The translations under genes were made by a program, and so were the position numbers. A DNA stretch of 64,000 nt. It comes from Balanoglossus misakiensis. Its lineage: Eukaryota; Animalia; Hemichordata. Shown in pieces: positions 15,240-47,793 of this stretch. The first letter of the stretch is position 1, and every line of letters begins with the position of its first letter. The stretch lies in assembly GCA_040954595.2 (NCBI GenBank), contig CM082597.2, forward strand, positions 6,783,849-6,847,848, written 5' to 3'. Under the pieces are notes generated by a model. That model saw only the letters and a list, made by a program, of their open reading frames with translations, searched no databases and was not told the DNA's origin.

Positions 15240-18200
15240 TCAAGACTTTGTGGGAGACGCTGTTATCTCAACATCAGATTTCTTATGTCCTGTGATGGTT
15301 ATCTGGGACAATCCTGAAATCAGTCAAAACAACTTGATTTTAGCCCTTGCAGTGTGCAAAGTAGCCTAGTCCTAGCCGTATTTTGTCCGCTTTGCTTCCA
15401 AAACTAACGCCTAGCCTCATTCAAGTAACTGGCCCAATAAAACCCTGTACCCCTTGCTGGGAATTGTGATGTAACTAGCGTCGCTGTGAAGTCAATCAGA
15501 GACTTTGTTTTTCCAATGATTGGACAAGGATATACATATGTGTAATTAAGGATGGGTAACATTTTAAATTCAAATTAGCCCTGCCTTCACTATAACCTTA
15601 CACCCAATCACAATCGTTTAGTTTATGTGAGTGACTTCAAGGGGACGCTAGTTACATCACAATTCCCAGCAAGGGGTATGGGGTTTTATTGGGCCAGTGG
15701 CATGAGTGAAGCTAGGTTGTTAGTTTTGGGAGTAAAGTGGACAAAATACAGCTAGGACTAGGCCACGTGCACAGTGGCTTGACCACATAATTTTCGCTGG
15801 CACGGATCAAACCAGACACTGAATTAACCCTAACGCTGCCAAGTCAGTTGAAATTATAACACACCATGCAGCGAACCCTCGATCGTGATTCGTCAATACA
15901 CCGTCACGTGACCTTAGTCATTTCGAACTGTTCCCTAGGGCATCAGTTCGAACGGTTTCTGCCCGGTACTGTTGCCTGGATGTGGTGTGCGTCGTGATTG
16001 GTGTGTTATAAAACACATGATGACTGACATATTCGGGCAACAGTGTATTTTTGATGACCTCGGGACTGCCAGTCACACCAAAACAGTCTGTTTTCCCTCG
16101 GGCTATGCCCTCGGGGAAACAAGACTGTTTTAGTTGTGACTAGCAGCGCCCTCGGTCATCAAAATACACTGTTGCCCTCATTGTCAGTCATCATGTGTAT
16201 ACTGTTATCAGCCTCACTTGCACGCCAATAGACCACGCCCTTAGCATCATTGATACATACAATCCATTCACTGACAGTGACACAACCCACTTACCCTCAT
16301 CTGATTTCGTCCGAACAATATGTGTGATAGACTGTTTCCTGGCTTTGCGTTTTCGACTTCCAGTTACCATAGTGATGGGTTTGGTCTCAGCAATGCCATC
16401 ACTGTTGTCATGGAAATGACCATCTGGATCAAGTCTAGTCATATGAGAGTCTGAAAATTTGCAAGAGACAATCTTGATCAAACTCATGGTACAAGACCCA
16501 ATGCTCAAAAACACTGCACTGCAGGTCATCAGATTCACAATGGGTGAATTCAACATATTGAGGGAAATATTCCAATCAAGCACCAGACATGGCTTGGAGT
16601 TGTCAACATGTCCATGGAGTGTTTTAACCTCAGGAGATAATTGGACCACAGCACAGATATTAAAACGGTGTGTCTTAAAGGGACAAAGTCTCTCTCTCTC
16701 GCTGCCCTTTTTCCATTAATTATGTTTGATACACGACACCGTTTATATTATTCTACATGTGGATATATAGTGAATCAACATTCAAAGACACACAACTTCC
16801 ATCCCGTTTGTAGGATATGAGAGTAAAAATCTCGCCAAAATGAGTTAGCAGTAGAGACTGATTATTCATTTTGGCGAGTTTCTTCAATTCTTTGTCTACA
16901 AACGAGACGGAAGTTGTGTGTGGTCGAACGCTGATTCACAATATATCCTCATGTAGAATAACATAAACAATGTCTTGTATCAAACATAATTAATGGAAAA
17001 AGGGCAGCGAGAGAGAGACTTTGTCCCTTTAATAATTCAAGACACTGTGAGAAATATTGCAAGCAATTTGTGATGCTTCACCTTTATAGTCCTCCATGTC
17101 AGACAGTTTCAAGCCTTTGCCAATAAACATGGCGTTCTTGTACATGTTGGTGGACTTCTTCTTGGTTTGCGATCGACTCTTTGGTTTAAACTGATCCAGA
17201 GTAAACTGTGGAAGACTATCTAGTTCAGCTTTAAAATCAAAGTCTGCATAGTCTCTGCAAATCAAGGGAAAAAACAATTAACCCTAACGCAGCCAAGTCA
17301 GTTGAAACTGGTTTGATTTCCAGGGTGCCTAGAATCCTGGCTCCCAGGCCTGTTAGACTGCCAAGTGTGTGTTAATCTGTAGGGCCTATACAAGACCCTC
17401 AGACCAATACAGTGCAAACCAGTGCGATTTGGTACATTTTACGGGGGGCTCAGACTGCCAAGTGTGTCTAAGTACGTATGAGAGCCATGTCAAGACAGTC
17501 AAAATACGTTTCAGAAGAAAAAGTGGCAAATACGTATTTTAAGGGACTTGACACTCTAAACAGGTATGACACCATTTAGCATTAGGGTAAAAGCAGAAGT
17601 AAGAAACTTCTCAATCTGATTAAATTAGATGTAGGGTAGAGTAACATCTTATACTTATGCGGTACAGTATTCTATGCTGTCGACTCACACTTCATCTGAC
17701 CAACTTCCATAGAAGGTGACAACAGCACATGGATACTGTACTGTGTAAGTAAAAGACGTCACCATGCATATATTAGAATTCACATCAAACTGGTGCCACG
17801 TACCAATCTGCAAAGCATGCAGATAAGATTGAAGTATTTTATTATTAAAAATATGCTCAAAGTGGCAGCTTAACCCTTTCACCGCCATGGTTCAGTCCAA
17901 ACCCATTGTTTTCCATGGTAATGTTGGACCTCTGAAGAGTGAAACGGGGGTTGAAAGGGTTAAAGTGCTGAGGGCTGTACGATTTACTTACAAGTTATCA
18001 ACATTATTGGAATCCGTACCACTAACAGACCCCTCAGCTCTGTCTCTGCAAATATTACTCTCACTCGCTCGCCGTCTCCTCATGGATGAAGCTCTCCTCC
18101 TTTTGGCTGCTTTGGTTTCCATGTCAACAGTCGGGTCGTCTTCATCACTGTAACTGATAAAGTCTCCCTTTCTGGTTTTCTTGCAGTTAAACGGTCGCTC

Positions 18201-19131
18201 TGTACACTGTAAATCGTTCAGCATTCCCCCAGACACGAACTGTTTGTACAATTTGCCCTTACACGACCGGCTGGATTTTCGACAATGCGTCTTCGACTTC
18301 TCCTTTCCACATTCTGTCTCGTCTCTCCGCGTTTCCATGGCAACATCGGCACATCCCTCACCGTTGCTGTTCATTTCACAATCACCTCCCACCACCTCTC
18401 TGTCCTTTCCAACTTTTGTCCTCCCGGTACTCACACATGTTGTCGGTACATCAGTAACAGTCCTCGTTTTGGATTTCCTCTTATTATCACTGCTGCCGTT
18501 TCTGACACAGTCCTCAACCTTGAGTTTCTCAAGTCCTTTCTTTGATGAAATTTTACGTCCAGATTGTCTTTTGTTGCTTGGCGCATCTTGGCTTTGTGGA
18601 CCGACAGTTGAGAATTCCGACTGAGTTGTATCACTTTGTTGTTCAAAGACTGGTTGTTCTGAACACATCTGTGGATTAAACAGACAAACAGTCTTTTAAA
18701 ACCTTTTCACCACCATGGTTTGGTTCATCTCTATTGTTTAATGTCAATGTTGGACCTCTTTACATGAAAATGGGGGTGAAAGGGTTATTAGCATTACGGA
18801 ATTGCAAAGTACAGCGTCCCATGAAACCTCCTTTCTCATCAATCCCCTCCCCCCCCCCTCAGATAAAACCCTGAATAAGTCATGTGACAGCACAACAAAC
18901 AAATGCACATGCTTTTCTTGTACCGTGATGCATTCGAATTCTGGGTATCATATTGATTCCACTATGCCGACTATCTCTACTCTACACGCAGACCAATAGA
19001 CACAGACAGACATACACAGATGCAGATATATACAGACATTACCGGTACAGACACAATATACAGATATACATGGACAGATAGACATACAATGTACATATAC
19101 ACTATACAGACAGACAGACAGACAGACAGAC

Positions 19132-19208
<77 letters not shown>

Positions 19209-22134
19209 CAGATACAGACATGCAGACACTGACAGATGATACAAAGATACATGTACAGTATGCATGGACAGACAGACAGACATGCATAGACAAAGAGAGA
19301 CAAAGAGACCCAAGTTACCTGTGCAAACTGAAACAAAGTGCTCTTGGATTCAGTTTTACACTGCTTTGTCTCAGGCTGTTCATTATTACAACTGTCAGTG
19401 TTTGGTGATACCTCTTCTTGTCTATCTTGACCCGTCGTCTCAGTATTCGAAGATTCTGTAGACAATGCCTGCTCTCCAACAGCAAGCAATAAATTTAAAC
19501 CACCCATGTCAGCTGGATCTGTAAAAGTATCAACGAATAAAATATACTTTGTGTTGTTTTCATAAAAGATTTCTTTTATAATAGCATTCTGGAAATCAGA
19601 AATGAAAACAGAAATTTCCTGTCAAGCAATTGATGTCAAGGATATGTATGTCCATTCTGAATGCTCCATAGTTGTTGTCTTTTCACAGGGTGTTCATTAT
19701 TTTTCAACCTTAAAGGGGCAAATTCTCTCTCTCGCTGCCCTTTTTCCAATAATTATGTTTGATACAAGACACTGTTTATATTATTCTACATGTGGATATA
19801 TAGTGAATCAATGTTGGACCACACACAACTTCCATCCTGCTTGTAGGATTTGAGAAAAAACACGCCCAAAATGAATAAATGGTAGAGACCGAGTTTTTCA
19901 CTCTTGTGTCTACAAGCGGGATGGAACTTGTATGTGGTTGAACTTTGAGTCACTATACCGGTATATCCACATGTACATTAACATAAACAGTGTCTTGTAT
20001 CAAACATAATTAATGGAAAAGGGGCAGCGAGAGAGAGAGACTTTGTCTCTTTAATTTGAATGCTCTTGAAGGAGCAAATACCTGCAAGTTTGCCTGGTGT
20101 AATGGATACATCTTTCCTCGCTCTGTCTTTGTATGTGACTGCATGCATCCTTCTTGTGGTCACAGAAGGACTTGTTGAACTGCAGCTTTGGGTCTTGTTG
20201 GTTCCACACCATTTGTAATCAGGATGAGCTTTCAGAAATGCCGCTTTACACTGCAATGCAGGAAATAGTAGACAATGTAATGTCAACTATTTATTGTCGC
20301 GCTGTACAGTGTTTTTCCTCATTTTAATATCTGTGGTCCAATATCAATACTGAGTTACAGTGTTTTGTAAATGGGTAGCAGAAATGTAAATACAACTGCA
20401 TGGTGATGCTTGTAAATCCATGATCTAATGGCCCGTTCCATTAATTAACCCTTTCACCACCATGGTTCAGTCAAAACCTATTGTTTTCCATGGTAAGGTT
20501 GGGCCGCTAAAGAGGGAATTGGGGGTGAAAAGTGTAAGGTCTGCTCTTGGGCGGAAATCTTTGCAAGTGGGGATGTGTATACTGTTAAATTTGTGGGTTC
20601 AAATCCTTGAACACTGGTGTTGTACTGTGACTATGAAGGTCAGAGGTCAGCAAGAGTGATAATTGGCATGATTGCCTCACTAAAACTTGAATATACAGTC
20701 AAAACCTGTCTTAACCGAACACCAAGGGACAAAGGCATTGTTCAGTTTGCAGAGGTGTTTGGTTCATAGAGGTTCTCTTAACATGTGGTTCAAACTTAGA
20801 CTGAACAATTCAAATTACTAAAAATAGCCAAAAGTTGGAGTTGCTGGGGTTTTAACCCTTCCACCACCATGGACCATGGTTTGGTCCAAATTCATTGTTT
20901 TCTGGGGTAAAGTTGGACCTCTATAGAGGGAACTGGGGGTGAAAGGGTTCAGGGGCACTGGTTGCGTAATTGCCATGGGGGGGGGGGGGCAAACAAGGTC
21001 AATCATCCTGTCCCCCCCCCCCCCAATCTGGATGAAACACCAAAAAATAATCTATGGTGCCCTAGCTAATGTTATAACCTGAAATTTAACAATGCGTTCC
21101 AATTCAGGTTATTGTCATGGACAAAGAACAGTGCATGAAAGGGACAAAGTCTCTCTCTCTCGCTGCCCTTTTTCCATTAATGATGTTTGATTCAAGATAC
21201 CGTTTATGTTATTCTACATGTGGATATAGAGTGAATCAACGTTCGACCACACACAACTTCCATCCAACTTGTAGACACAAGAGTGAAAAACTCGCTAAAA
21301 TGGATAATCGGCGTTTACCATTTATTCATTTTGACGAGATTTTTACTCTCATATCTTACAAACAGGATGGAAGTTGTGTGTGGTTGAACGTTGATTCACT
21401 ATATATCCACATGTAGAATAACATAAACGGTGTCTTGCATCAAACATAATTAATGGAAAAAGGGCAGCGAGAGAGAGACTTTGTCCCTTTATAAGCACAG
21501 TGCATGGAGTTACTATAAAACAACAATTATATTATACCAGTATATTGATGGTGTAAATCACGCTATTTTATTGGTCGAGACACGACACGTGACCGTCATA
21601 TACCACAGTCATATATCATAGTCAAAGAAAATACCTTTTTAAAATGTTTTATGCAAAGTTTCAATACACTGGCATAATATAATAGCAATGAAACACCCCC
21701 AGCCATGGTATACCACTCGATTTTGACCAGTTCAACTCCATATACGCATTCGCTATCGCTCGTGCGTATATGTCGTGAACTGGTCAAAATCTCGTGGTAT
21801 ACCATGGCTGGGGGTGTTTTATTGCTTAATTGTGTAACTAAGTGAGATTATTACTAACCTGTCTGGCCAATGCCAAGTATTTTTCCTTCTCATCACAATC
21901 CAGCACAGCCCACATATCAGCTAACATCTTCGTTGCTGATCTGTTGTCCAACCAAGGATGCCGATCTTTGACTAAACTGCGATGCCTTTTACAGAATAAA
22001 AGGAAAGCATTCATTGGTCGACGGATTGGACGGCCGCTATCATTCACACCTGCATCAGTGATGATGTCATCTTCTTGGCTGTCAACTGTTGTCATTATTT
22101 CTTCCTTAACAGCGGGAAAAACATCAGTTGCCAT
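15240..22134 (-). CDS. BBX: HMG-box transcription factor BBX (bobby sox) homolog, 574 aa, 7 coding exons
   Basis: Exons (minus) 22134-21859, 20250-20082, 19518-19319, 18668-17992, 17254-17082, 16450-16295, 15313-15240, phases consistent. HMG box RRPMNAFLLFCKRHRSLVKDRHPWLDNRSATKMLADMWAVLD..KAAFLKAHPDYKWC, plus BBX-typical motifs MGGLNLLL and GSRKRKARKQSITHIVR. Confidence 0.93.
15362..15765. mobile_element. TAG-terminated foldback MITE (Academ-like)
   Basis: Long IR TAGCCTAGTCCTAGC / GCTAGGACTAGGCCA. Second copy at 46859-47254. Confidence 0.85.
15855..16201. mobile_element. Palindromic non-autonomous element (Crypton-like), copy 2
   Basis: Reverse complement of 1296-1610. It retains the central CCCTCGGGCTATGCCCTCGGGG segment that copy 1 lacks. 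Confidence 0.7.
16675..17032. mobile_element. K1 foldback MITE
   Basis: TTAA TSD and full TIRs, in a BBX intron. Confidence 0.92.
17278..17590. mobile_element. piggyBac-like MITE (TTAA-CCCTAA...TTAGGG-T(T)AA)
   Basis: CCC/GGG termini with TTAA. Near-identical copy at 35242-35554 and a fragment at 15824-15853. Confidence 0.85.
17870..17963. mobile_element. ~90-bp piggyBac-like mini-MITE (TTAACCCTTTCACC...GAAAGGGTTAA)
   Basis: Further copies at ~18699-18787, 20445-20535, 20852-20950 and 22344-22440, all in BBX introns. Confidence 0.85.
19105..19210. repeat. (AGAC)n(AGAT)n microsatellite in low-complexity DNA
   Basis: Direct tetranucleotide runs. Confidence 0.97.
19710..20054. mobile_element. 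K1 foldback MITE
   Basis: TTAA-flanked family copy. Confidence 0.9.
21136..21492. mobile_element. K1 foldback MITE
   Basis: Family copy with degenerate TSD. Confidence 0.9.
21528..21830. mobile_element. Palindromic non-autonomous element (Crypton-like)
   Basis: Hairpin GCAATGAAACACCCCCAGCCATGGTATACCAC...GTGGTATACCATGGCTGGGGGTGTTTTATTGC plus an ATTGG..CACGTGAC tail. Confidence 0.65.
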
Positions 22135-24090
22135 CTTGGTGATCTATCTGATCAATGGAAGAAAAACAGACGAAAATACTTAAAGATCATGTAGTTGAAA
22201 TTGTGTTGTGCTAAATCTGACATACCTGCAACTTCCATAAATTGATAGTTTATGAACATTTTACTTTTTCATAAAACCCTACATTTTTTTCAGTGCAGAC
22301 AGCCAATATTATCTTTTATTTCCTTTTCGCATCATCCCACTTATAACCCCTTCACCACCATGGTTCAGTCCAAACCCATTGTTTTCTATGTTAAGATTGC
22401 ACTTGTCTTCTAAAGAGGGAACTAGGGGTGAAAGGGTTAATATTACTATGACAATGACATTGTCTGAAAAGATGGTAAGTGGAGTCTGAAGGGGTATTGT
22501 TTGTGGTGTGACCTTGACCTCGAGGACACACATGAGTGATGAAACCTAGCATCAGGACATCCTTCTTGAAGAGATCAATGCAGGTGCCTTTGTGAATGAT
22601 ACTCATACTGCTCTGACTATGCCCTGGTCTAACAAAAATATTTTTTAAAATCATTGAGTCAATTTGAGGATTTCTATCTAGAAAATTTTCTGGGTCATCC
22701 CTATCTATACCTTTGCATGTGGTGTGGATAATTTTCTTGAGTCACCGGTGAGTTTGTAGGAGATGTCTGAGGCTGGGGGTATGCTGGTAGATACTTATGG
22801 TCAGATGGGCTTATAGACTCGGGGACAGTCTGCAGTGCTCATATATGTACACCAGTGTGCCTGGGCTGTGGCTTGTCACAGAATGAAACAAAACAACCAA
22901 AACAAAAACAACCAAAACAACATAAAAACATTGCAACTCTTTGCCCTTTGAAAGCACTGGTCTCTTGACCAATGTGAATGGTGAACAAAGTTTACATCAT
23001 TTCAATCAATAAAACTGAATAAGACATAAAAACAAGTATAAATGGTCCGGTTCACATGTCCTAGTTTAAAGGGGTGAAACATCCCATTGAAAATGTATCA
23101 TTCTCAATTACTGATTTTGAAGATATTTGTCTGTCTAGTGCACTTCAAATGCAATGCTTGACACGGATCAGAATTGTTCAGAAGTCTTGTTGAAAACCAG
23201 AGACAGCAAACAAACCCATGTATGATTTGACCTTGCCCTCGTTTATGACGATCGCCACCATCATTGTCATGCGGTAGGACACCAGTTGTGAAATATCCAG
23301 TCGCAGCACTCGCTGAAGTCAAATTAAAAACCCGTTTGTAGAAGCTACATTCACTATCGATCAGTCAAGGCAGGCGCTCGATTTGTTAAAATGTAGCCAC
23401 AAAAAGTGGTGTTTTTTTAGACTACACAACCTCCATGCGCCATCCATATGTTAAAATACTGATCCTCCTACCAGGGCAGACATCTATCATTTGTCGTACA
23501 GAACTCATCAAAACAACTCGCATTTCTTAAGAAATCGCACTGACACATAGCATATATCGGAGAAGGGGTAAGACTAGCTGGTTCTACGCTTCAGTTAGAC
23601 TGTTTCAGTAAAACGAAACAGACATCCGTGTGCATCGAGTCAGGATTGGACTTCCCCCATTGCCAGTGCATGTACGTATCACAACACCACTTATGTCTAG
23701 GGGTCACTGGAGTTTCACGAAAACTAACTGAATCCCTCGGATAATCTCGAAATCACAGCCTTACCAATTCATGACAGTGATGCTGCTGTCGCAATTTGTT
23801 TGGATCGGGTGCTATCACGAGACTTTTCATTAACGAATTCGGAGGAAAACACTGGCGAAAAATAATGTTTTTACCTGCAGTGAATATCGACGTGCCTGCC
23901 TACACTGTCTGCTCATTACATATGCAGCATTTAAATATATAAAGACCCAGGACAATCTGTTGACGGTCAGTAAAGTGTCATGCATACATCCAAACTGAAT
24001 TATGCCTCCCCTCTTACCTATGACAAGGACCATCCATTCCTAGTCGTTCCGACGAAAAATATGTATTTTTTATTCAAAACATACAACTCA

Positions 24091-25263: not shown

Positions 25264-27928
25264 ACCACAGGGATCTCTTCCTCCCTGTGTGTAGTGTGTG
25301 TGTGCATGTGTTTGTTTGTTGTTATTCAAAGACAGAAACAAACATGACTATAATTGTAAACAAAACAAAAATATTTTTTTTTATTTCACATACATGTAGT
25401 TTTATTGTATTACTCAATAACAACACACACACACACTACAAATAATGAGGAAGAGCTCCCTGAAAATATTTTCTAAGACCTGAGACAACATTTGTAGACA
25501 TCAAATTATAACAAATTAGTGAAGATACAGCTTTGATGTGGTGGTGAATTGTATTGTAGCATGTAAGGTCATTTGGGGTCATCACCATGCATGCAGAACT
25601 GGTACAATTACATCATCAAGTTTTTGCTAATGATTATGTAATACAACTTGTATCAGGACTTTGACTTTAGAAAATAAACCAATCAAAGCATATGATTCAA
25701 AAAATGAATTGTATATTATGCTACCATCCGCCGTTCTCATTGGAATAGAGCTCATTCCAGCGTAAATACATAACAAGTGAACAAACGATAGTGTCCGATT
25801 GAGGGCGCTCCGCAATGAGAACTTATCCAAGAGAATTAAGAGTGTCCATGTTTGTTTATGCATATAGCATAATAAAGGATAATAATATAGGGTTCAATAA
25901 TAAAGAGTTCAACTGAACATATTTCGTTGCAGCCGTCATGGTTGGAAGATGGTCCAAAATATCTTAAACACTGGTTTGAGGGGTGGGAAGAAACCTTTAC
26001 CTCAAATCAACCACTATACTCCCGAAGATCCACCACTCATAGTTATTCAAACTCAATCCCATATTCAGCAAAAGTCTGCAACAGCTCAGCTTATTCATAT
26101 AATTGATACGGGCACACAAATTTTATTTCACAAAATATACACTTTTATTGACAGGAAAAAGTCACATTCAATTACAGTCTTTCAAAATTTTCCAATCAAT
26201 AATTTCTATAACACTGATTCCATTTTTAATAGTTTGAAAACATAGGCTTTGCCATTCCTAACATTTGAACATTATGTTTTACATACAAAAATATCCTCAA
26301 ATTAAATTTGAGAATTCACAGAATATATAATTCCTAGTCTTACCCCATAACACATGTTTAAAACACAGTAACCATGGCATACATTGGCTCACAAATGTAG
26401 TACTCTCATTCTCGCCCCACCAGACTACGGATTTCTTTCGTTTCACTATCAAAATCACGTACTCTGGTTAAAATGGAGTACCGCGCTGGTATTTGAACAT
26501 ATTGGTAATGCATATTCATGAGATGACATCATTATAATCTGGCCAATAAAAGCCCGTCTCTCAAGGAGAGCTGGGACAAGAGCCATGTTGTTTAGAATGA
26601 GATGTAATGAGATGCGTGAATGGGATGTAAAAAGCAATCTGATTGGTTGTTGGATGTACTGTGAAAGCGCCTAGACCAAATACTGAATACATGGCCGTAT
26701 TATACCACGGCCTTTTTGCGGGGAGCAGAGCGCTGCCGTAAAAGGGCCGTGGTTTGCGACGATGAGTACCTTATTCTCTGTTCCAATCATGGAGTTGCCA
26801 CAGTCTGACAGATTGTAGAAAGTAAACATTCACAACATAGAACGTGACTGTGAGTGAAATGAAGTTATTGCAATGTGTTATTGTGCAAAATTTGAATTTG
26901 AATCCCGACTAGAATTCATTTGTCAACAATAACAATTGTCGTTACACACATATTAGTTATGGTTACAAGCTGAGTACTGGGCCGGGTATATTGGCATTTT
27001 TGGAATAGAGCAAGAATAAAATTTGCTACGCAGATAACAAACTACGTGGAAATAAAGCCAAAAGTTGCAGCTAACGTTCCTTTAAACAGTTAAAATGGCT
27101 ATTCAGGTCAAAATCACTGAATATGGTTGGCTCTTACACAGTTTTGAATCAAAGAAATGAAAAAGATTCACATCAATGATGCAAGGATGGAAGGTCACAA
27201 AAGTGGCTTATTTGCCACAACCTGTCTGCTCAAACAAAAAGTCTTTGTAGCATTTACCTTGCTGCATTCAGGGTTTGACATATCAATTCTGCATGTCGGA
27301 ACTTACAAAAAAAATCATACTCATATTTTTTCCAGTTGTGTGCATTTGTTTTTCTAGGCAGAAAATGGCAGTTAAATTTGTAAGATTAGTCTTTACAAAA
27401 TCAAAAATATGATAGTATGCTGGTATCACCTACAAAATTGTAATAATTTTAAAAATTCGAAAAGTGTACCTTCACCAAAATGAAACATTCATGTTGCATG
27501 TAGTGTGATGTGAATCAGACCACACCCTCATCTATAACTTGAAAAGACAATTTTTCACTGTGAAATTGTAGTTGATACACAAAAGAAAAATACATGTCCT
27601 GGAAATTTTATCAACAGTTACATGTACTAGCTTATTTTGATGAAAGAAGTTTGAAATGCATCAGTCCTACAATCTAAAATACAAAAGTAAAAAAGCGTTA
27701 AAATCGAACCTTAGTACTGTATTTCTCCTGGTAAGAATTTTTACAGAAGAGGTTATATCCTGTCATAAACCCTGGCAGATTTTCAGCCAATAGAACTTTT
27801 TCTTAAAAAGGCATGAATTGCACCCCCCCCCCCCTCAATTTGGGGGAGGGGGTTGCATAAATCGATATTAAAAGGGGCAAAAGCAATTAAATAAACAGGA
27901 ATGACACCCCCAGTGAAAACACAACAGT

Positions 27929-28669: not shown

Positions 28670-31600
28670 TTATGTATAAAGAACCTTTAGACAATTGCCC
28701 CCACTATCAGAGCATACAACTCGACCAGTGTCATCCACTGCTATGAAATTGGATGTGGTCAATGAATGCTTTACACTGGACACAAGCTGGTGATTGGCAT
28801 CAAAAAAGAATAATTTGCCTTGTGAACACACATAAGTATTATTCCATTTATCTGCGGCCAATCCCATTGGTCGTTCTAAGAGCCCCTCCCCAAATGTAGA
28901 CAAAACCTGAAGGTTTGTGGCCAGTACATAGATACAGTTGCACCCTGACACTAGAAGTACATTATTTCTGGTCAAAATCACAGAATGCGGTTGTGCGATC
29001 AGGCCCTCTTGGGTGTATGCGACTAGTCGGCCATCATCCGCGCGATATTTATTGACGCGGTTTGCTATGTAGTCTGCCACATAGACGAAGCCATCTTTGG
29101 AGACGCACAGACCAGTGGGCGACATTAACTGCCGGACACCCAACAGAGCCTGCACGCAACTTCTCTGATCGCAGACAATCACCTGTCGGTTGGCCCGGTC
29201 GGCGATGTAATACGTATCGTTCACAACCGCGACGTCTTGCGGTTTGACCTTGCGCCGAAAGCCGTAGAATTTGATGATACTCTTACATCGGTTGTTGGCG
29301 TCCAGCGTCTGTACCCTCCCGTTCCCAGAATCAGCTACTGCGAAGTCTCCGTTGTCTTTGATGGTGATGCCACAGGGATCGTTGTAGCTGCCAGGGAGCG
29401 ACCCTTGCCTTCCAAATAACCGCACTGTATCCTTCGGGGACAAACCTGAAATGATTCAATTGACAATTAATGCTTAAAGGGACAGTCTCTCCTTGCTGCG
29501 CCCTTTCTCATTAATTATGTTTGATACAAGACCCTGTTTACGTTAATGTACACGTGTATATGTAGTGAATGAACATTCAACCACACACAGCTTCCATCCC
29601 GCTTGTAGGATATGAATGTAATAATGTCGCCAAAATGAATAATCGGTGTTTACCATTTATTCATTTTGGTGGGATTTCTACTCTCATATCCTGAAAACGG
29701 GATGGAAGTTTTGTGTTCTTGAATGTTGATTCACTATATATCCACATGTAGAATAACATACATGGTGTCTTGTATCAAATATAATTAATAGAAAAAGGGC
29801 AGCGAGAGAGAGACTTTGTTCCTTTAATATATCACTTATACAAATTGCAACATACAGCTGCAGCCTCAATCTGGCGTCTCTAAGATGTTCATGTGTACCT
29901 AGCAGTAAGCTTATTAAGATGGACCAATCTTAAGTTGGAAAGTAATAACACGAAAATAATGCAATAAGTGGCAGCCTCTTGGGGCTTCAATCCAATCCTA
30001 TCTTCTCCCGAAGGAGTCAGAAAACAGATTGATTTGAGGTCTTTCATTTTCTTAGAAGACACTCAGTTAATGGCTGCAGTATTAGATAGTCTACTTACCT
30101 CGATCTAGTCGACTGAACGAAGACAGCAATTCACCAATCTCTTTCGTTCTCTTTTTCTCTTGTAGCGCCATCTGCACGGCATCCAGCTCTTGCATCTTTT
30201 GTCTCACACCCTTCATCAGTTGACCGAGATCGCCCGCGTCTCTGTTCCGTCGCAACCTGGTCTCTAACTCGGAACACGCGCGCCTCATTTCATCGATCTG
30301 CCGTTGACAAGAGGTGCCAGTGCCGAGCCAATCTGCATGCAAGGCGTCTCTGACACCCGCGTTCTCATGCACGGATTGGGAGAGTCGGATCACATGACTT
30401 GTCATCTGCTTCAGCTGCTCTTCCACCAATCCAATCTCATCGTTCAGCTGATTGACACTTCGTGTGTCACTCCCCTCTGCGCATGCATTCTGGGATGCCA
30501 ACTTGGCTTCTGTTCAAAAAACAGATAAAAGAGAACCTTAATGAAATCAATTTACAGTCAAACTTGTCTATAGTGGCCAGTCAAGGGACTTTCCTAAAAG
30601 TTGCCTTTAAAACTTGCAACTTGATTTGACTTGTTCAGCCCATAAGTGCTTCCCCCTTATTACAACTTGGGATATTTAAGAGTTACAGGTGCTTTAAGAC
30701 CAAATCTTGAAAATAATAATAATAATAGTGAGTTCTTATATAGCGCACGTATCCATAATGTTTCGTGATCAAGGCGCTTTACAACAATTATTACCCCTGG
30801 TCACTGGACTTAAATTAAATCCATTCAACTCCCTGGGGAGCAAACAACAGCTCACATGTGCAGCCATAAGCACAGCAGAGCTAAACACACACACATTGCA
30901 ATCTCTGTCCTACCAGGTACCCATTTCTCCTGAGTGGGGAGAAGCAATGAGAAGTAAAGTGCCTTGCCAAAAGAACACAATAAGACAGCAATGCCGCAGC
31001 TCGAACACATGATCCTGCGATCATGAGTCCGCAGCTATGAAAATATGATGGATGACTTGTCTTACTTCAAAATATAATCATCATATGGCTTCAGAAAATA
31101 TTAACAATTTACCGTATTCCTGCAATTCCTCCTTCAAGACACTGTACTCCTCATGTTCTATGATACACTCCAGTAGAAGAAATCGGGCCTTTATCTTCTG
31201 CAGACGTTTTCTGGTGATGAGAGACTCGTTGATGATGTCATCCAGTCGTCCTGTCGTATAGGCTTCCCACAATGCCTCTGCTGCCGCCATTGATTTGCAG
31301 GTCAGGATATATCTGTTGTTGCCCTCAACACATTCTGCAAAGATGTCTTGGTGGATGTTTGTCATTTGTTGGAAGATCTTTGTGAAGTCGTCCGTGAGGT
31401 CGTCTAGAGACAAGAACTTGTCGGCAATTCTGCCGACTGACTGCTCCCCATCAGGCACACCACTGCAGACTCGCTGTATGATACTTATTTGCACTGGGAA
31501 AAAATCATCAATTGTAAGTATGCAAGTAAACAAGACAAGTAAAAGACAAACAAAGAACTTGTGCATATTGTATTCCAAAAACATTGAAGATGAATTCCAA

Positions 31601-34600
31601 TCTGTATAATGTGTTCTCTATATCATGAGATCAAAATATATCCAAGGTATTTTTTAATTAAATCCATCCTTTCAAAAATTTATCCAGCTTCTAGTCTCAG
31701 AATACAACTGTATTACGCATTCTTGAAAAATTGATCTACTCTGCCATGAAGATGCGTTTTGAGATTCAACCATGTAATATTGCTTGCTATTAATTTTGAT
31801 TGCATTTAATTTTCTTTACATTTTATTTCGAGTTGAGCGTTCTTCTGTACTTTGCTTTGTATAATAACATATATATGTGATTCCTTAAAGAGCCTATCTT
31901 ACCTCGAAACACACTTTTGAGGATAAATAATAATTGGGCTTGTGTGTTAAATGCTGGTGTCCTTTTACTTATTTCATGTGGATAAATAAATGTTAAATTT
32001 AAAAATGTTCAGGGCCTGAGAAAAAAGTTCTGTTTTGGCCACGCCCATTTCCGTGACGTCACAAGAGGAACCATTTACGTTTGCAACAGACTTAGCACTG
32101 TACATTGCAGTGGTTGAATTGCAACCATACATGCCTGTGATCTAAACGGCTTTGCTGTGTCAGCCTGGGTACAACTCTGTATCCCCCGTACCCTTCAAAA
32201 TAAACGTACATATGTCTACCTTATCATCTAGGGGAGATGCGATTATGAAAAAAAAAACTCGGCCCGGTTAGGCTACGGCTTCGCATTGCAAGCAGTACAC
32301 AACATGCAATGGCAGCGGATGTGTATAGGCACCTTAAGCTTACACATACAATGATTGCTGCCTCGATTAAACCGTCGAATATTGCCCAGAGGTTTAGGTC
32401 TAGAGTGTTGGGACTAAATCTACTTATCTTGGACAATGTCAACTTATTGATAACTGATCGTGGTCTTTTTGGCGATTTTCAATGACTGCCTTAACAGACA
32501 AAATACGCGTGTGTTATTGTACAAGGTCAAGGGAACTCCATCAGCGCCGATCGGCAGCGATGACACATATCGCGCCGCGATGTATATTTACTACCAGCAC
32601 TAAAATTCTGTCTTTTGAATTACATGTAAGCTATGCCTTTTTGGTGATGACAAACAGAAACATTTATGACTTGTCGCTGTAATCATGGAAGTACCTTGAC
32701 ATGCTTCATACTGCATTATAACAAAATGAAACCATACAACCAACAGCAACAGGCGATCATGCCAGGCCGACCCACTCACGCTCACAAAGCATGAAACATT
32801 TTCATTGATACACACGAATATCTAAGTTTGGAAACAGTTTTCACTCACACGAGGCAAAATTTATTCAACATATTTTGTTTCAAAATTTGTACAGTGTGTT
32901 TTGGAGCCGATGAGTCGGACCTAGCGCGACGTAAAACTTGTAAACAAAGAAATTAGAAAAGAAAGATGGCGACCATTCAGCCGAAGCCATGCAAAGGTAC
33001 GACTGAAAAAAAACGTGAAATAGTAACGGTAATATTTTGAACGTTCAAGTTTTTACATCGATTGCTGTCAACCTTAATTATCGTAGTTTGCGGTCACTGG
33101 GTACCGGTTAGCCAGACGGAAGCGTGAATAATAATAAACAATCTCAACATGATGTCGGCCAACGCAAAATTGTGTTTACGCATCCTGCCAGTTCACCTAC
33201 TACTACTTGTCTACAGTACTGTGTAAATCGCAGTCGCTGGAACATTGTATGAACACCAATACCGGGCATAAACGATCTGTTGGTCGACCTCTCCTGCTGA
33301 CAGGCTTCTATTTTCCTGTATGGGTGGGGATTGTCTTCTCGTGATTCGAACCTGGCCGATTATCGTTCAACGGTCATGCATTGACAGTTACTGCCGCGGC
33401 CGTCACCGGCGCCGCGCCGGCTTCATATCCACCATACGATGTTGATGATCGTGGCATAGACTTTCATTGGTTTGGGGGGAACTCACACGGGTGACTCCCG
33501 TCTAGGTAATGTGTTGCTGCAACCACGGCAAACAACTCCTTTCCCCATTGTGGTATTACACAGAAAAGCACGAAAACACCGTATGACACCTGTGAGCATC
33601 GCTAAAGCTGGGCTACCTGACCGGTTCCTCTTGTGACGTCACGTCACGTGACCAAAATGCAGCAAATCTGAACTCGGACTTTTCAGGACAGGGTGGATTT
33701 TGAAGCATTTTATGAGAACAAAACAAATATTATAGAAATCGATACCCGAAAAATATTGTCACTTTTGGAAAATAGTATATTTCTTTTGAACATTTTTTAA
33801 CCTTCTGATAAGATTTAAAAAGGCAAGATATGCTCTTTAAAGGCAAGAGTCCTACAGTATCAAAATAAACACACGTTTCAATCTAAAATTACCTATTGGG
33901 TCAGTTTCAGGCAAGTAATACTGGTTCATCCCCCCAAATTACTGCAGGTCATGACCTTTACAGCTTTGTTCACTGCTACTAAATGATTACCAACATGATA
34001 TACTTACAAGGAATTCGATTTTCCAACACTCTATCCATTCCTTCACAAAGACTTGACTGTCTCTCCAGCTCACCTACATTTCCTTATAAGAATAAAAAAA
34101 TCGCAGTTATTTTTTGTTTACTTGACAAGTAAACTGAGTGTAATGTGGAGGAATGTACAGGTCTTGAAATTGCATCTGGGTCTATCAGTTTGCAGAAAGT
34201 GCAGTCTGGAACCTGAACCAGATTATGTTTTTTTGTTAAATCCAAACGACCAGACCTCTGCGCATTTCCCAGAAAACCGATACAAGACACCATTTATGTC
34301 ATTCTACATGTGGACATATGGTGAATTAATGTTCGACCACACACAACTTCCATCCTGTTTGTAGGATTTGAGAGAAAAAATCTCGCCAAAATGAATAAAT
34401 GGTAGAGACCGATTATTCATTTTGGCGAGATTTTCACTCTTGTGTCTACAAGATGGAAGTTGTGTGTGGTCGAATTTGGATTCACTATATATCCACATGT
34501 AGAATAACATAAACAGTGTCTTGTATCAAACATAGTTAATGGAAAAAGGGCAGCGAGAGAGAGACTTTGTCCCTTTAAATGAAACCTTAAAACTGACATA

Positions 34601-36819
34601 CCTGTCAATGTATTTCCTGTTAGGCCTTCTTCTGCCTGCAGTTCAGTTGTATCTCCTTCAACATTCTCAGTTGTATCTGCCTGTTGTTCCACAACCATTT
34701 CTCTCTGCACAACTGGCATAGCTTCTCGTTGGTCGTCTGTCTCGGTCCATGTGATTGGTTTTCTTGGTAAGCCCAAACAATCTGATTGGACAAATGAAAA
34801 TCATGCAAATCTATCAGAATCACATCAACCTCAGCCAAAATTGTGCTTGATGGACAAATTCTCGTGACGGAATTTCCATGGGGCTACACTAAATTACCTG
34901 ACAACCTCATACAGTAACAAATTTATGCACATTTTTGTCTAGTAACTGCAAAGTGTCTCTGTATACAGCGTTATCTATTGAGGCAGTGTGCACTCCAACA
35001 AAATAATTTTTTAAATCCTTGAGTCAATTTGAGGATTTCTAAAAAATTCTGAGTCAGCCGTATACCTTTGCATGTGGTGTGGATTATTTTCGTGAGTCAC
35101 CAGTGAGTTTGTTGTGTCAGTGGCACATCAATCATATGGGCGTAGAGGGCACTGTATTGAGGACAATATCTCTACCAAGATCTATTTATAGACTTCTCAG
35201 GGCAGTAACTGTGGATCTTTTTAGATTAAATTAGCAATTGATTAACCCTAACGCAGCCAAGTCAGTTGAAACTGGTTTGATTTCCAGGGTGCCTAGAATC
35301 CTGGCTCCCAGGCCTGTTAGACTGCCAAGTTTGTGTTACTCAGTAGGGTCTATACAAGACCCTCAGACCAATACAGTGCAAACCATTACAATTTGGTACA
35401 TTTTACAGGGGGCTCAGACTGCCAAGTGTGTCTAAGTACGTATGAGAGCCATGTCAAGACAGTCAAAATACGTTTCAGAAGAAAAAGTGGCAAACACGTA
35501 TTTTAAGGGACTTGACACTCTAAAGAGGTATGACACCCAGTAGCATTAGGGTTAATATGGCACTGCTAAATGCTATGGGGCTTTATCCTATAACGACATA
35601 CAATACCTGCACTGTGATTAGCACATTTCAGGAAATCTTTGTTGATATCTTGCATAGCTTCCCTCACTGTGTTCTGCATCTCAATCTTGACAGCTGATGC
35701 CATCTCTGCATAGAGACTGTAATTCTGAATAACGTCTTGTAATTTCTCCTGTAAGTATACGGGAGATCTTTGCATATCGACCACCATCTTGGACTCAAAG
35801 GATGGCAGAAACTTGCGGATGAAGTCATGGCTGTCGGATCGAGACGGAACGACGACGGGTTTCCCGGCTGCCAGGGCGGACAGAGTCAGGGAGAGATTAT
35901 TCACCGAGGACGGCGGGACCAGTACCACGGCCGATTTCCGGAGTTCCGTTTCCATGGTTGCGGTGTGACATCGTTGGAACGACAGAATCAAGGAGTCGCG
36001 CGGCTGGATGTTCTCGGAGACGGTCGCTTCTTGAGACACCGGGACGCCGAGAATTCTCCATGTCAGGATCTGCTGCGAGGGTCGATCCATGTTGTCGGCA
36101 GTCCAGTTGAGAGCTTTTGGCAGGACGCTGCGAACGCTTGTGAGATTGTGGATATCATTAGCGTCTAGTAGAGACAGGATGGTGAATTCATGTTGATCTG
36201 ACAAGGTGGGCGTTGCAGGAAGACTGAAGAACTTCTCATCGGGAATCGGCAAGATTTGATAATGTTTGATGTGGTTTACAAACTGTTGGTAATACATGCC
36301 GTAATTGCGGAAGGTCTGAAATCCCACTGAGAAGACGCTATTTGCCTTCTTGCTTTCCATGGCAACAGCATCAGAACAATACTGGAATTCATCGTCTTGG
36401 TAACCCACGGCAACAGCTGGTGTCTGACGGGAATACAAGTTGATGTGATGATAATGAGCATGAGGGTAAAGGTCGCTCTGGATCTTGACCGCCGCGTCTG
36501 ATGTAACCATACCAAAACCGATCACCATGGCAACATTACCGAGTCGACTTAACTCTGGAAAGTACCACTTGTGTGCTAGCAGCCACTGGGTACCCATTGG
36601 TTGCCGACGGAGACGTTCTGGTGGATCTGGATAAATTAATGTGACTCCCATCTTCTTGGCTTCAATCTGCATTGCCTCAGTTACACAGAACGCTGTACAG
36701 CAAACCTCAATGCCGAGGGATTTCAACATTTTACTCAGAAAGTTGACAGCAGAAGGAACACCACCACTCAATCCATCTCCCCAATCTGGACTCACAATTA
36801 ATGCTGTTGGTCTGTCCAT
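28670..36819 (-). CDS. Mosaic protein: GT-B (GT4-like) glycosyltransferase fold + linker + TRADD-N-like + coiled coil + NHL-repeat propeller, 1011 aa, 6 coding exons
   Basis: Exons (minus) 36819-35607, 34781-34602, 34082-34008, 31493-31113, 30509-30099, 29445-28670. All GT-AG, all introns phase 1, one continuous frame. GT motifs: ALIVSPDWGDGLSGGVPSAVNFLS and VVLVPPSS....LSALAAGKPVVV. TRADD-N-like: ILTCKSMAAAEALWEAYTTGRL..LECIIEHEEY. NHL: FGRQGSLPGSYNDPCGITIKDNGDFAVADSGNGRVQ. Confidence 0.88.
29474..29827. mobile_element. K1 foldback MITE
   Basis: TTAA-flanked family copy. Confidence 0.9.
30712..31035 (-). mobile_element. tRNA-derived SINE
   Basis: On the minus strand: B-box-like GTTCGAG, then GCAAGGCACTTTAC..AAATGGGTACC core, CTCCCCAGGGAGTTG, and a LINE-like tail AAGCGCCTTGA...GCGCTATATAAGAAC(TAT)n. 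Confidence 0.75.
31889..33836. mobile_element. ~1.95-kb non-autonomous Kolobok-like DNA transposon
   Basis: TTAA TSD (31885-31888 / 33837-33840), TIR AGAGCCTATCTTACCT / AGGCAAGATATGCTCT, subterminal IR TGACGTCACAAGAGGAACC / GGTTCCTCTTGTGACGTCA. No intact ORF. Confidence 0.8.
34281..34578. mobile_element. K1 foldback MITE, left end truncated
   Basis: Right TIR and TTAA intact. Confidence 0.85.
35242..35554. mobile_element. piggyBac-like MITE copy 2
   Basis: TTAACCCTAA...TTAGGGTTAA; matches 17278-17590. Confidence 0.88.
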
Positions 36820-44523: not shown

Positions 44524-47500
44524 ATGGCGGCTTCGACGAGTAGTATGTCGAGGAAAGTAATAGTTCTATTTGTCATGAAGATGAGTGTCTGTTTAGGTAA
44601 GACGATATTTACAATTACCGGAAGGACATGCGATGGTGGCAATGTTGAAATGGTCTGAGACGGAAAACACACAGTGAAAGTCACAAGCACTGTTTCGTAG
44701 GTGACGCCCTTAATATATATTATAGACTAAGTGTATTGAACTCGCGTCGATCATTTGTGTGTAGGCCTATTATATTTCGGTATTATAGGTATCACCTAGT
44801 CTGCTACGGGTTCGTAGACTTACCACCCCACCCCGGCCCCCGCCCACGGCTACGGACCCGCACCGGGGTATCAAAGGCTAGATTAGAAGCAGTTTGCAGT
44901 TTTGTATTTGCAAATCTACGTCAGTACACGTAGGCCCGTAACTTGAAGAATGTCAGAGCACAATCAGATGTAGGGAACGGCGACGTGGTTTTTGTATAAA
45001 AAAAACACGTCGCCGTTCCCTACATCTGATTTTAATGAGATTGGTCAGAGCAGAGATAGAGGTTGAAGGACTGTGCAAAAGGGGTCATTGAGACTGAATT
45101 GATCAACGGGCATTTGTAATCTGCGGAATGCCAGTTAGGAATGTTATAAACAATCTCCATGATTGATACACAAAATTATAAGACAGAAATGTTTTTACAG
45201 CTACAGTCAGTGTAGGCCTAGGCCTATGCTTCGAAATAATTAGCACATTGGGCCTAATTAGGGAGCCTTCAGTAATTACGAGGGGGTGGGTGGGCCGGGG
45301 GAATCAGGGGTGGGTCACTTTTTACAATCCCACTTGGGGGGAGGGTCACTTTTTCCAGAAGCCGATTTTACAGTCAGATCTTGTTGGTGGATTGTGCATG
45401 TGATATTTCCTGAATACAGAGCAGGGATTAATTGATATTAAAAACAAAATGAATTGGGAAATTAATATGAAAATGATAATTTATGCAAATTATATGCAAT
45501 TTCTATACTTCTAAATTTTCAATTTATTAATATAAATATTGCTTAGGCTTCTGTGTGTAGGGGAGGGTCACATTTTAGAAGGGATGATAAGGGGGAGGGT
45601 CACATTTTAGAAGGGATGATAAGGGGGAGGGTCACATTTTACAGTTCAGGTGTACTCTGAATCCCCTCGCCCCCTCGTAATTATTGAAGGCTCCCTTATG
45701 CTATGGGTAGATCACCGACTTCCTCTTGTGATTGACATAAATCATACCGACGGCAGTTGATAGCATGTCCAACCCTACATGCAAAAGAGACAGTTGTATT
45801 ACAGGCCAAAATTAGTTGCACTTCACGTTGTGAACAAAAACAAAACAAAATGTTCTTTTTTTAGCTTAAAATTATTGCATTTTACAGCCCAAAGACCTAC
45901 CATTTGCCTCTTCACATGATTATATTCATGATTGTACATTCAAACGTAATAGACTGATACGTCAATAAGCTTACGGATGGGTATATACACAAAGGTATTA
46001 CTTGTACATCGTTAACTAGTACATGTACTAGTATCAGGCCGTGATTTTGGTTTTACGTTTAAAGGGACTAAGTCTCTCTCTCGCTGCCCTTTTTCCATTA
46101 ATAACTTGTAATGTACTTGTGGATATATAGTGAATCAACATACGACCACACACGATTCCATCTCGTTAATTTGTAGGATATGAGAGTAAAAATCTCGCCA
46201 AAATGAATAAATGAGTAAACACTTGTTTATTCATTTTGGCGAGTTTTTCACTCTCGTGTCTACAAGTGGGATGGAAGTTGTGTGTGGTCGAACGTTGATT
46301 CACTATATATACACATGTACATTAACATAAACGGTTAATTAATGGAAAGGGGGCAGCGAGAGAGACTTTGTCCCTTTAATATTTTGACCCCGAATCCCCG
46401 CCCAGTACTTAGCGGATGAAAACCCTAGCTGCTGACAATGATGGGAGCTGCACATCTTAAAATGAGCGATATAAATTCTTTAAAAAAAACACGATTCTGT
46501 GAAATGTTCAATTATTCCTATTCTCACAGGCTATGAGTATTGCAGCGGTTATTATGACGAAAATTCACATTGGCAAGATGGTTTCTATTGCGAGTCCTAC
46601 GAACCGTACTGCTGTGGCTCTTGGCAAGACAAGTACTGCTGTAGCACCGAAGGCTCTTACATGGTCGAGGCCGAGTACTGCGAAGGTTACACCGATAAGA
46701 ATGGAGATTGGGTGAGCGGTTTCCGTTGCGGCGGGGACGGTAGGAATATCTACTGCTGTGGCTCCAAGTGGAATGGAAAGTACTGTTGTGACTATGACTA
46801 CTACTACTTCGGCAAGGACGACGATGATTCTTTTGTATATAGCACGGGACCGTAAGTATAGTCTAGTATCTAGCCGTATTTTGTCCGCTTTGCTTCCAAA
46901 ACTAACGTCTAGCCTCACTCATGCCACTGACCCAATAAAACCCCTTACCCCTTGCTTGGCATTGTGATGTAACTAGCGTCTCCTTGAAGTCACTCACAAA
47001 AACTGAACAATGGTGATTGGGTGTAAGGTTGTAGTGAAGGCAGGGCTAATTTGAATTTAAAATGTTACCAATCCTTTTGTATATCCTTTGCCCAATCATT
47101 GGAAAAACAAAGTCTCTGATTGACTTCAGAGGGACGCTAGTTACATCACAATTCCCAGCAAAGGGTATGGGGTTTTATTGGGCCAGTGACTTGAATGAGG
47201 GTAGGCGTTAGTTTTGGAAGCAAAGCGGACAACATACAGATAGGTACTAGACTACCGAACGTAAGGCTTACATTGAATACTTGCACTTATTAGACTAATT
47301 TGACTTGATTCGTCTTATTAATTAAGATGTAGGTGAAACGTGGTTTAGCATTTAGCTGACCGTCATGACATGGTACAAATAAAAAAAAACCTACGTAGAG
47401 TGCCTGTCTTGGTGAAGGTGGATAATCGCAAGGCCACCCCGTTTAAACTTAGAGCGAAAAAAATCGTGCCCACTGTCTGACATCATCATCATCATCATCA

Positions 47501-47544
47501 TCATCACCATCACCATCACCATCACCACCACCATCACCATCATC

Positions 47545-47599
<55 letters not shown>

Positions 47600-47673
47600 C
47601 CATCACCATCACCACCATCATCATCATCATCACCACCACCGCCACCACCACCACCACCACCACCACCACCATC

Positions 47674-47738
<65 letters not shown>

Positions 47739-47793
47739 CATCATCACCATCACCATCATCATCATCATCATCATCACCACCACCGCCACCACC

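What the first reader, a model, noticed from the sequence alone, without database searches (positions are those of the whole stretch)
28670..36819. Glycosyltransferase-fold + TRADD-N-like + coiled coil + NHL fusion: candidate undescribed innate-immune sensor/effector
Seen: six exons splice into one 1011-aa frame joining a ~400-aa GT-B-like domain, an acidic linker, a ~125-aa domain with the pattern C-S-AAAEALWEAYTTGRL...I--EEY, a ~135-aa coiled coil and an NHL propeller. Known: coiled coil plus NHL is the C-terminal half of TRIM2/3/71-type proteins; GT4-like domains occur fused to NLR/death-domain proteins in corals and other marine invertebrates; TRADD-N-like domains are adaptor modules in animal and bacterial death/immunity systems. 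Inference: the RING/B-box of a TRIM-NHL-like scaffold is replaced by a GT-fold module and a TRADD-N adaptor. That would give an oligomerising cytosolic protein that senses with NHL (RNA or protein) and signals through the GT fold. I do not know of a characterised protein with this architecture.
Basis: partly seen in the sequence, partly recalled or inferred. Interest (0 to 1): 0.85.

Follow-up and report, generated by a model that had tools for sequence, protein, structure and literature searches.

The report
Dead sugar-transferase fused to NHL propeller
Six in-frame exons, matching an acorn-worm gene model end to end, are predicted to join a sugar-transferase domain that has lost its catalytic residues to an immune adaptor domain and a binding propeller; the domain order is already catalogued in amphioxus, but this likely enzyme-dead, expanded acorn-worm branch would act as a binding receptor rather than as the sugar-attaching weapon proposed for the family.

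Summary
The gene is real. It aligns end to end, 56% identical, with a Ptychodera flava gene model. Domains: GT4-conflict (Pfam 8e-19), acidic linker, DEDD2-clade TRADD-N, helical stalk, six-blade NHL.

The architecture is not undescribed. Kaur et al. 2021 describe GT4+TRADD-N proteins, and their supplement lists amphioxus XP_019644604.1 as GT4+TRADD-N+beta-propeller; I show that propeller is NHL.

It sits in a 42-member clade (support 100/99) in which none keeps them and the site has turned acidic, as in the inactive GT-B binders GtfB and Asp1. 32 of 150 relatives share the domain order, the identified ones being acorn-worm proteins apart from the one amphioxus entry. NHL tails are swapped between paralogues at the exon boundary and vary most on the binding face.

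Best reading: a likely enzyme-dead cytosolic receptor or scaffold, so 'signals through the GT fold' as an enzyme is unlikely. No expression or functional data. New variant of a known kind.

The parts
35607..36819 (-). Exon 1 (aa 1-404): GT4-conflict (GT-B) domain, predicted catalytically dead
   Evidence: Splice donor and frame; PF20706 E 8e-19 over aa 18-384; 58% identical to P0001; motif loss
36139..36165 (-). aa 219-227: site of the pyrophosphate-binding Arg and Lys of GT4 enzymes, here Asp and Thr
   Evidence: Alignment of 139 GT4 domains; roles from PMC8760489 passages
35878..35904 (-). aa 306-314: site of the EX7E motif, here Val and Ser in place of the two Glu
   Evidence: the intact motif of relative P0055 aligns to solved GT4 enzymes 2R60 and 2JJM
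34602..34781 (-). Exon 2: acidic linker, symmetric phase 1-1, skippable in frame; weakest exon
   Evidence: Splice signals; no clear match in P0001
34008..34073 (-). Exon 3: 66-nt linker exon
   Evidence: Splice signals; aligns to P0001 just before TRADD-N
31113..31493 (-). Exon 4 (aa 488-613): TRADD-N domain, DEDD2 clade; the hallmark Ser of the beta2-beta3 turn is Asn545 (31318-31320)
   Evidence: Atlas PF20694 clusters at 0.94; iterated profile finds the TRADDN-DEDD2 region of two Kaur-listed proteins; model pLDDT 96; TRADD-N 1F2H Z 5.8; Ser tally
30099..30509 (-). Exon 5 (aa 614-750): predicted helical or coiled-coil stalk
   Evidence: Only weak coiled-coil-type Pfam hits; heptad signal in aa 628-665 only; 50% identical to P0001
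28670..29445 (-). Exon 6 (aa 751-1008): six-blade NHL beta-propeller and stop codon
   Evidence: PF01436 E 7e-17; TRIM71/TRIM3/TRIM2/Thin structures at E 1e-20 to 1e-15; six blades aligned

Best explanation
The six exons are predicted to encode one cytosolic protein whose GT4 domain lacks the residues that bind the sugar donor, so it likely works as a binding receptor or scaffold of the acorn-worm innate immune repertoire rather than as a glycosyltransferase. Shown: the gene structure, the domain order, the motif loss across a 42-member clade, and NHL exchange between paralogues at the exon boundary. Inferred: the NHL top face binds the specific ligand (a protein or nucleic acid of an invader, or a guarded host protein). 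The stalk would oligomerise the protein. TRADD-N would act as the hinge that passes ligand binding to the front end, as Kaur et al. propose for this domain. The dead GT4, with an acidic cleft, would serve as a constant docking or glycan-binding module that recruits downstream partners. One exon per domain with phase 1-1 ends would let tails be swapped to renew specificity.
For: Gene and orthologue.

Motif loss: in the clade, 0 of 42 keep either Glu and none has the GR or KG motif. The Arg column is E 18, Q 12, D 8; aa 217-229 are net negative in 38 of 42, against 0 of 49 motif-intact domains. Two His columns not used to classify are also lost: aa 102 (His in 49 of 49 intact) and aa 128 (His in 41 of 49). 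The clade holds at 100/99 with motif columns removed (73 of 139 rows). Exon 1 finds no solved glycosyltransferase even at E 10, while an intact relative does. EX7E, Arg and Lys are needed for donor binding (PMC8760489 passages). The same losses and an acidic cleft mark inactive, carbohydrate-binding GtfB and Asp1 (bioRxiv 10.1101/219105 passages).

Family: 32 of 150 listed relatives have GT4, TRADD-N, NHL in order; 20 lack both Glu, 11 keep one, 1 keeps both.

Tail swapping: P0013 and P0003 are 34% (GT4), 33% (TRADD-N) and 78% (NHL) identical, the jump falling at the start of the NHL exon. NHLs of dead-clade proteins are rejected as one clade (AU p 0.001, 17 vs 12 rows). Putative top-face positions have mean entropy 3.0 bits, against 1.5 for core and 2.1 overall (28 NHLs). 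Immune context of GT4+TRADD-N: PMC8195603 sections 11 and 15.
Against: Nothing here shows expression, immune induction, a ligand or a partner, and the immune role of the whole family is itself a computational proposal. The window holds a single copy, not an array. It has one close relative at 56% and the rest at or below 38% over GT4, and keeps 16 of 24 top-face residues with that orthologue; this fits a fixed, possibly non-immune ligand. The TRADD-N switch Ser is Asn in this gene and its orthologue, while 24 of 29 NHL-bearing relatives keep Ser or Cys, which weakens the hinge step for this gene. Surface loops are more variable than cores in any propeller, so the entropy contrast is not proof of positive selection. 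The P0003/P0013 swap could be a chimeric gene model (P0003 has an aberrant end).
Confidence: 0.55

Rival explanations
1. The dead GT4 is a GtfB-like partner subunit. It pairs with an intact GT4 paralogue, and the NHL tail picks the target that the active partner glycosylates, so the pair is an effector although this chain is inactive.
For: GtfA/GtfB precedent: GtfA catalytic, GtfB substrate-binding. Acorn worms keep intact GT4-conflict proteins (P0047, Glandiceps). Aromatic residues are gained at aa 102 (F/Y 38 of 42) and aa 129 (W/Y/F 39 of 42) near the inferred acceptor side.
Against: No partner identified. Asp1, GtfA and GtfB carry an extended beta-sheet domain besides the two Rossmann folds; exon 1 is spanned by the two-Rossmann Pfam model alone. 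No intact GT4 gene lies in the window.
Confidence: 0.15
2. This particular gene has been domesticated. It is a single-copy orthologue with a fixed host ligand (RNA or protein, as in TRIM-NHL regulators) and a housekeeping or developmental role, although its paralogues are immune.
For: One-to-one pairing with P0001 in GT4 and NHL trees (100/100). Single copy between a BBX/HBP1-like HMG-box gene and a Shisa-like gene. Top-face residues 16 of 24 identical with the orthologue. Switch Ser lost.
Against: 56% identity between two acorn worms is low for a housekeeping regulator (inference). The basic pocket of LIN41/TRIM71 is not reproduced: 3 K/R in 24 top-face positions (PMC5908797 passages).
Confidence: 0.15
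3. The GT4 domain is still an enzyme, with a changed donor or chemistry, and glycosylates invader or host molecules as Kaur et al. propose for the family.
For: The fold core and N-terminal glycine loop are kept (G20 in 34 of 42). One Glu is dispensable in some GT4 enzymes. Asn127 is conserved in 39 of 42.
Against: Both Glu, Arg, Lys and two His are lost together. The replacing residues vary freely (13 different residues at the first Glu column), and no new invariant polar residue replaces them.
Confidence: 0.1
4. The six exons are not one transcript: the GT4 and NHL parts belong to separate genes.
Against: End-to-end colinearity with a P. flava model. 32 relatives have the same order. Paralogues have annotated isoforms that differ only in the linker (P0014/P0151-P0153, P0031/P0154, P0046/P0155). 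All-phase-1 GT-AG junctions.
Confidence: 0.04

Closest known systems
[quoted passage not shown]
   Same: Same domain order. That protein is hit by exon 1 (P0126), has the TRADD-N region by my profile and NHL repeats. TRADD-N lies between a constant front and a variable tail.
   Different: The amphioxus GT4 keeps both Glu and the Lys and falls among motif-intact domains, and its NHL is a long-branch outlier, so the fusion may be independent (not proven). The paper treats GT4 as an active effector (section 15), has no Ptychodera entry in the 12 supplements searched, and lists no GT4+TRADD-N+propeller for Saccoglossus (60 of 60 places).
Ptychodera flava XP_070548638.1 (P0001) and paralogues in P. 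flava and Glandiceps talaboti
   Same: Orthologue, 56% identical over the full length, with the same motif loss.
   Different: Database gene models named 'uncharacterized' or given an unrelated automatic name; shorter linker.
Inactive GT-B proteins GtfB and Asp1 of the streptococcal accessory Sec pathway
   Same: GT-B fold lacking two basic residues and the essential Glu, with an acidic cleft; they bind substrate or carbohydrate.
   Different: Bacterial export proteins with an extra beta-sheet domain; an analogy of mechanism, homology to them not tested.
TRIM-NHL proteins (TRIM2, TRIM3, TRIM71/LIN41, Thin, Brat)
   Same: Six-blade NHL at the C-terminus after a helical segment; the best natural PDB matches of the family profile are Thin, TRIM3, TRIM2 and TRIM71; Atlas models match at TM 0.64-0.69.
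   Different: No RING, B-box or filamin domain; no LIN41-type basic pocket.

Membership tests
GT4 + TRADDN-DEDD2 proteins (Kaur 2021) | GT4-conflict domain | tested here: met
   PF20706 68 bits against a cut-off of 26, E 8e-19
GT4 + TRADDN-DEDD2 proteins (Kaur 2021) | TRADD-N domain of the DEDD2 clade after the GT4 | tested here: met
   Iterated profile from exon 4 reaches the region in XP_019644604.1 (E 5e-14) and XP_019640446.1 (E 6e-13) at round 3, best reversed control E 0.08; Atlas PF20694 clusters 0.94 with 215-221 shared features. No direct Pfam hit for exon 4; 4 of 55 relatives hit PF20694 below its cut-off
TRADD-N superfamily | RRM-like alpha+beta sandwich with a four-stranded sheet | tested here: met
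   Model with 31-row alignment, pLDDT 96, four strands. TRADD-N 1F2H is rank 5 of 48,161, Z 5.8, rmsd 4.1, 101 aligned, but among generic ferredoxin-like hits (top Z 7.1, a transposase), so the fold alone is not specific
TRADD-N superfamily | uS motif (Ser, sometimes Cys) in the beta2-beta3 turn | tested here: not met
   Asn545 here and in P0001; S 19, C 5, N 4, G 1 among 29 aligned; motif described in PMC8195603
Active GT4 retaining glycosyltransferases | EX7E donor-binding motif | tested here: not met
   Val306 and Ser314; 0 of 42 clade members keep either Glu
Active GT4 retaining glycosyltransferases | Arg and Lys coordinating the pyrophosphate | tested here: not met
   Asp219 and Thr227; intact group R 43 of 49, K 49 of 49 (K was used to define that group)
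Active GT4 retaining glycosyltransferases | Sugar transfer from an NDP-sugar | not testable with these tools
   Needs an assay
TRIM-NHL (class VII TRIM) | RING and B-box at the N-terminus | tested here: not met
   No such Pfam hit in exons 1, 2, 4, 5, 6 or in P0001
TRIM-NHL (class VII TRIM) | C-terminal six-blade NHL propeller | tested here: met
TRIM-NHL (class VII TRIM) | Coiled coil homologous to the TRIM coiled coil, filamin domain before NHL | tested here: inconclusive
   No filamin hit and no room for one; the Atlas matches align about 280-300 residues, mostly the propeller; stalk homology neither shown nor excluded
LIN41/TRIM71-type RNA-binding NHL | Strongly basic top-face pocket | tested here: not met
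   3 K/R in 24 putative top-face positions, assigned by blade analogy and not on a 3D model; Brat-type or other RNA binding is not excluded

The most novel reading that the evidence does not exclude
Acorn worms turned a bacterially derived glycosyltransferase effector into a pseudoenzyme and built on it an expanded family of intracellular receptors, whose specificity is renewed by swapping single-exon tails (NHL here) and whose dead GT4 cleft itself reads a glycan or docks an active partner: an animal immune receptor class organised around a pseudo-glycosyltransferase instead of a NACHT or RING core.
Probability: 0.35. Interest if true: 0.78.

Novelty: new variant of a known kind. Interest (0 to 1): 0.48.

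Why it matters
The only paper my searches found that describes animal GT4-conflict domains proposes that they glycosylate invaders. A large acorn-worm clade that kept the fold but dropped the chemistry shows the domain has a second, non-enzymatic use, and gives a natural series (intact, one Glu, dead) for testing what these domains bind and do. The one-domain-per-exon, phase 1-1 layout with tail exchange offers a concrete route to receptor diversity in a deuterostome without adaptive immunity. For this single gene the gain is modest: it has a database orthologue, and the domain order is already listed for amphioxus.

Tried and rejected
No whole genome is held for this window, so copy number in its own genome was not counted. 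Sequencing runs: no RNA holder listed, so junctions and expression stay unchecked.

Single-sequence fold of exon 4 was poor (pLDDT 51) and was replaced by the alignment-based model. Foldseek on PDB gave no match at E 0.001 or better, only weak ferredoxin-like rows. The word-index search with exon 4 found nothing among 95 candidates. The word-index search with exon 6 returned the orthologue and then mostly microbial or unnamed NHL proteins, so it did not identify an animal donor of the tail. A PDB profile search with alignment A2 was swamped by NHL hits and said nothing on GT4 in the 60 rows shown. A complex prediction of GT4 with TRADD-N could not be run because the queue was full; the closed-state model is untested. 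The GT4 domain was not folded.

A second copy of the gene in the window was rejected (only a 28-nt match at 27102-27129). A crude scan for extra phase 1-1 exons gave two weak intronic candidates (34205-34122, 34181-34122) with poor donors and missed the real exon 3, so it is insensitive.

Literature: ten full-text searches turned up no paper on inactive GT4-conflict domains or on this acorn-worm family; the library lacks most subscription papers.
Full report
Observation. Reading the minus strand gave six exons: 36819-35607, 34781-34602, 34073-34008, 31493-31113, 30509-30099 and 29445-28670. All have AG/GT ends and all five introns are phase 1. Each globular domain sits on one exon. Pfam gives GT4-conflict PF20706 for exon 1 (E 8e-19) and NHL for exon 6 (E 7e-17), and nothing above cut-off for exons 2, 4 and 5 (exon 3 was not scanned). 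The best relative is P0001, P. flava XP_070548638.1, which carries both families and aligns over the whole length at 56%. That makes chance or a chimera of two genes very unlikely and places the window, by inference, in an acorn worm. Exon 2 lacks homology support. An acceptor-like site just before the start codon suggests an upstream exon, probably non-coding since P0001 starts at the same Met. No RNA evidence was obtained.

Middle domain. Exon 4 has no direct Pfam TRADD-like_N hit, but three lines agree. (a) Atlas neighbours carry PF20694 (46% and 54% of members) at score 0.94, and 10 of the ten best named hits share the family or clan. (b) A profile built from exon 4 and 30 relatives, iterated three times over 158 stored proteins, reaches the TRADD-N region of two proteins that Kaur et al. 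label TRADDN-DEDD2 (P0126 and P0044); reversed sequences score no better than E 0.08. (c) An alignment-based model has pLDDT 96 with four strands and matches TRADD-N 1F2H at Z 5.8, rank 5 of 48,161, though among generic ferredoxin-like folds; Foldseek gave nothing significant. The hallmark Ser of the beta2-beta3 turn is Asn here and in the orthologue, while 24 of 29 NHL-bearing relatives keep Ser or Cys.

Family. Exon 1 finds 211 representatives at E 0.001 or better; the best 150 were listed. Pfam on 55 of them found NHL in 19. By my own profiles, 32 of the 150 have GT4, TRADD-N and NHL in that order and 71 have TRADD-N. Of 22 proteins looked up, 13 are P. flava, 7 G. talaboti and 2 B. belcheri; the rest are unnamed. 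Annotated isoforms of three paralogues differ only between GT4 and TRADD-N, which suggests alternative linker exons.

The GT4 is predicted dead. I aligned 139 domains of at least 280 aa (shorter hits dropped). 49 keep both Glu and the Lys, 43 keep part, 45 keep neither Glu and 2 are incomplete. The window falls in a clade of 42 with neither Glu (FastTree 1.0). IQ-TREE on 73 of the 139 rows, with motif columns removed, gives it 100/99 (with motifs, 99). In that clade no member has the GR or KG motif. The Arg column is mostly Glu, Gln or Asp, and aa 217-229 are net negative in 38 of 42 against 0 of 49. His102 (49 of 49 in intact domains) becomes Phe or Tyr in 38 of 42, and His128 (41 of 49) is replaced in at least 40 of 42. 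That a His at this place serves catalysis in GT4 enzymes is recalled, not from a call. The intact motif anchors to solved GT4 enzymes; exon 1 finds none. PMC8760489 (passages) states that the two Glu bind the donor sugar and ribose, that one is dispensable in some enzymes, and that Arg and Lys hold the pyrophosphate; bioRxiv 2025.10.15.682550 (passages) agrees on EX7E. bioRxiv 219105 (passages) describes GtfB and Asp1 as inactive GT-B proteins with these losses and an acidic cleft that bind substrate. The 13 clade members I could name are all acorn-worm proteins; 28 are unnamed.

NHL is the exchangeable part. Over 406 pairs among 29 proteins (not independent), GT4 and TRADD-N identities correlate at 0.88, and each with NHL at 0.62-0.63. 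P0013 and P0003 are about 30% identical up to the NHL start and about 90% through most of the propeller, the jump lying where the window has its last phase-1 junction. NHLs attached to dead GT4s do not form one clade (AU p 0.001). Putative top-face positions are the most variable among paralogues (3.0 bits against 1.5 core), but 16 of 24 are shared with the orthologue. The propeller is TRIM2/3/71-like but lacks the basic pocket described for LIN41/TRIM71 (PMC5908797 and PMC9634614 passages). There is no RING, B-box or filamin.

Mechanism. Shown: gene, domains, motif loss, clade, tail incongruence. Inferred: NHL binds the ligand, the stalk oligomerises, TRADD-N relays, and the dead GT4 docks a partner or glycan (0.55). 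Rivals: partner subunit of an intact GT4 (0.15), a domesticated non-immune gene (0.15), altered chemistry (0.10), separate genes (0.04).

Comparison with what is known. Kaur et al. 2021 (PMC8195603; I read sections 11 and 15 whole and passages elsewhere) describe GT4 before TRADD-N in cephalochordates, hemichordates and cnidarians and treat GT4 as an active effector. Their Figure 4 source data lists XP_019644604.1 as GT4+TRADDN-DEDD2+beta-propeller, and TRADD-N plus propeller behind Death or FN3 domains. That amphioxus protein has true NHL repeats but an intact EX7E. Limits on what I saw: that file is cut in storage, I saw 30 of 176 GT4 places in it, 30 of 62 'propeller' places and 1 of 61 parts of the Figure 6 file, and one file was not searched; unseen rows could hold more such entries. 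So this gene is a member of a catalogued, untested class and is not a TRIM. The new points are the loss of activity, the acorn-worm expansion and the exon-boundary swap. Two earlier AI notes on other pieces of this genome report the same dead-GT4 front with other tails; they agree but are not independent evidence, and I had reached the reading before seeing them.

Verdict. Observation confirmed, interpretation partly supported, new variant of a known kind, interest 0.48.

Noticed in passing
window 29474-29830 (intron 5); copies at about 4602-4950, 14518-14878, 16675-17034, 19710-20055, 21135-21491, 34279-34578, 46059-46382, 50797-51153, 51709-52042, 59274-59637 and partial ones: A ~355-bp palindromic MITE with TTAA-like ends, present more than ten times in 64 kb at 75-86% identity; the ends recall Kolobok or piggyBac-type elements (recalled, untested).
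   Followed up: partly
window about 31885-33840 (intron 3): A ~1.95-kb insert bounded by imperfect inverted ends next to TTTAAA/TTAAA, with an inner ~20-nt inverted pair at about 32053 and 33623; single copy in the window; possibly a non-autonomous DNA transposon.
   Followed up: partly
window about 17990-22143, minus strand: Multi-exon HMG-box gene, BBX/HBP1-like by recalled motif; HMG_box E 4e-12 at 21838-22143.
   Followed up: partly
window 46484-49373, plus strand: Shisa-like gene: an exon with two Shisa_N stretches (E 1e-17), then a long CAT/CAC microsatellite at about 47450-47900 directly before a transmembrane, cysteine-rich exon.
   Followed up: no
window 57048-63118, minus strand: Exons of a kringle (62777-63118, E 9e-21) and WSC (61650-62012, E 8e-15) domain gene, with a possible C-type-lectin-like exon near 57600 that got no Pfam hit.
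   Followed up: no
P0038, P0039, P0043, P0048, P0062, P0064 and kin: A second GT4 group, acorn-worm where named (P0041, P0064, P0087, P0110, P0128, P0134), that keeps only the second Glu; many have an extra partial N-terminal GT4 half before the full domain, and 11 end in NHL: an intermediate state between intact and dead.
   Followed up: partly
P0004 (G. talaboti XP_077996817.1): DED + TRADD-N + dead GT4 + TRADD-N + NHL in one chain, a dead-clade member with its own death-fold output domain.
   Followed up: no
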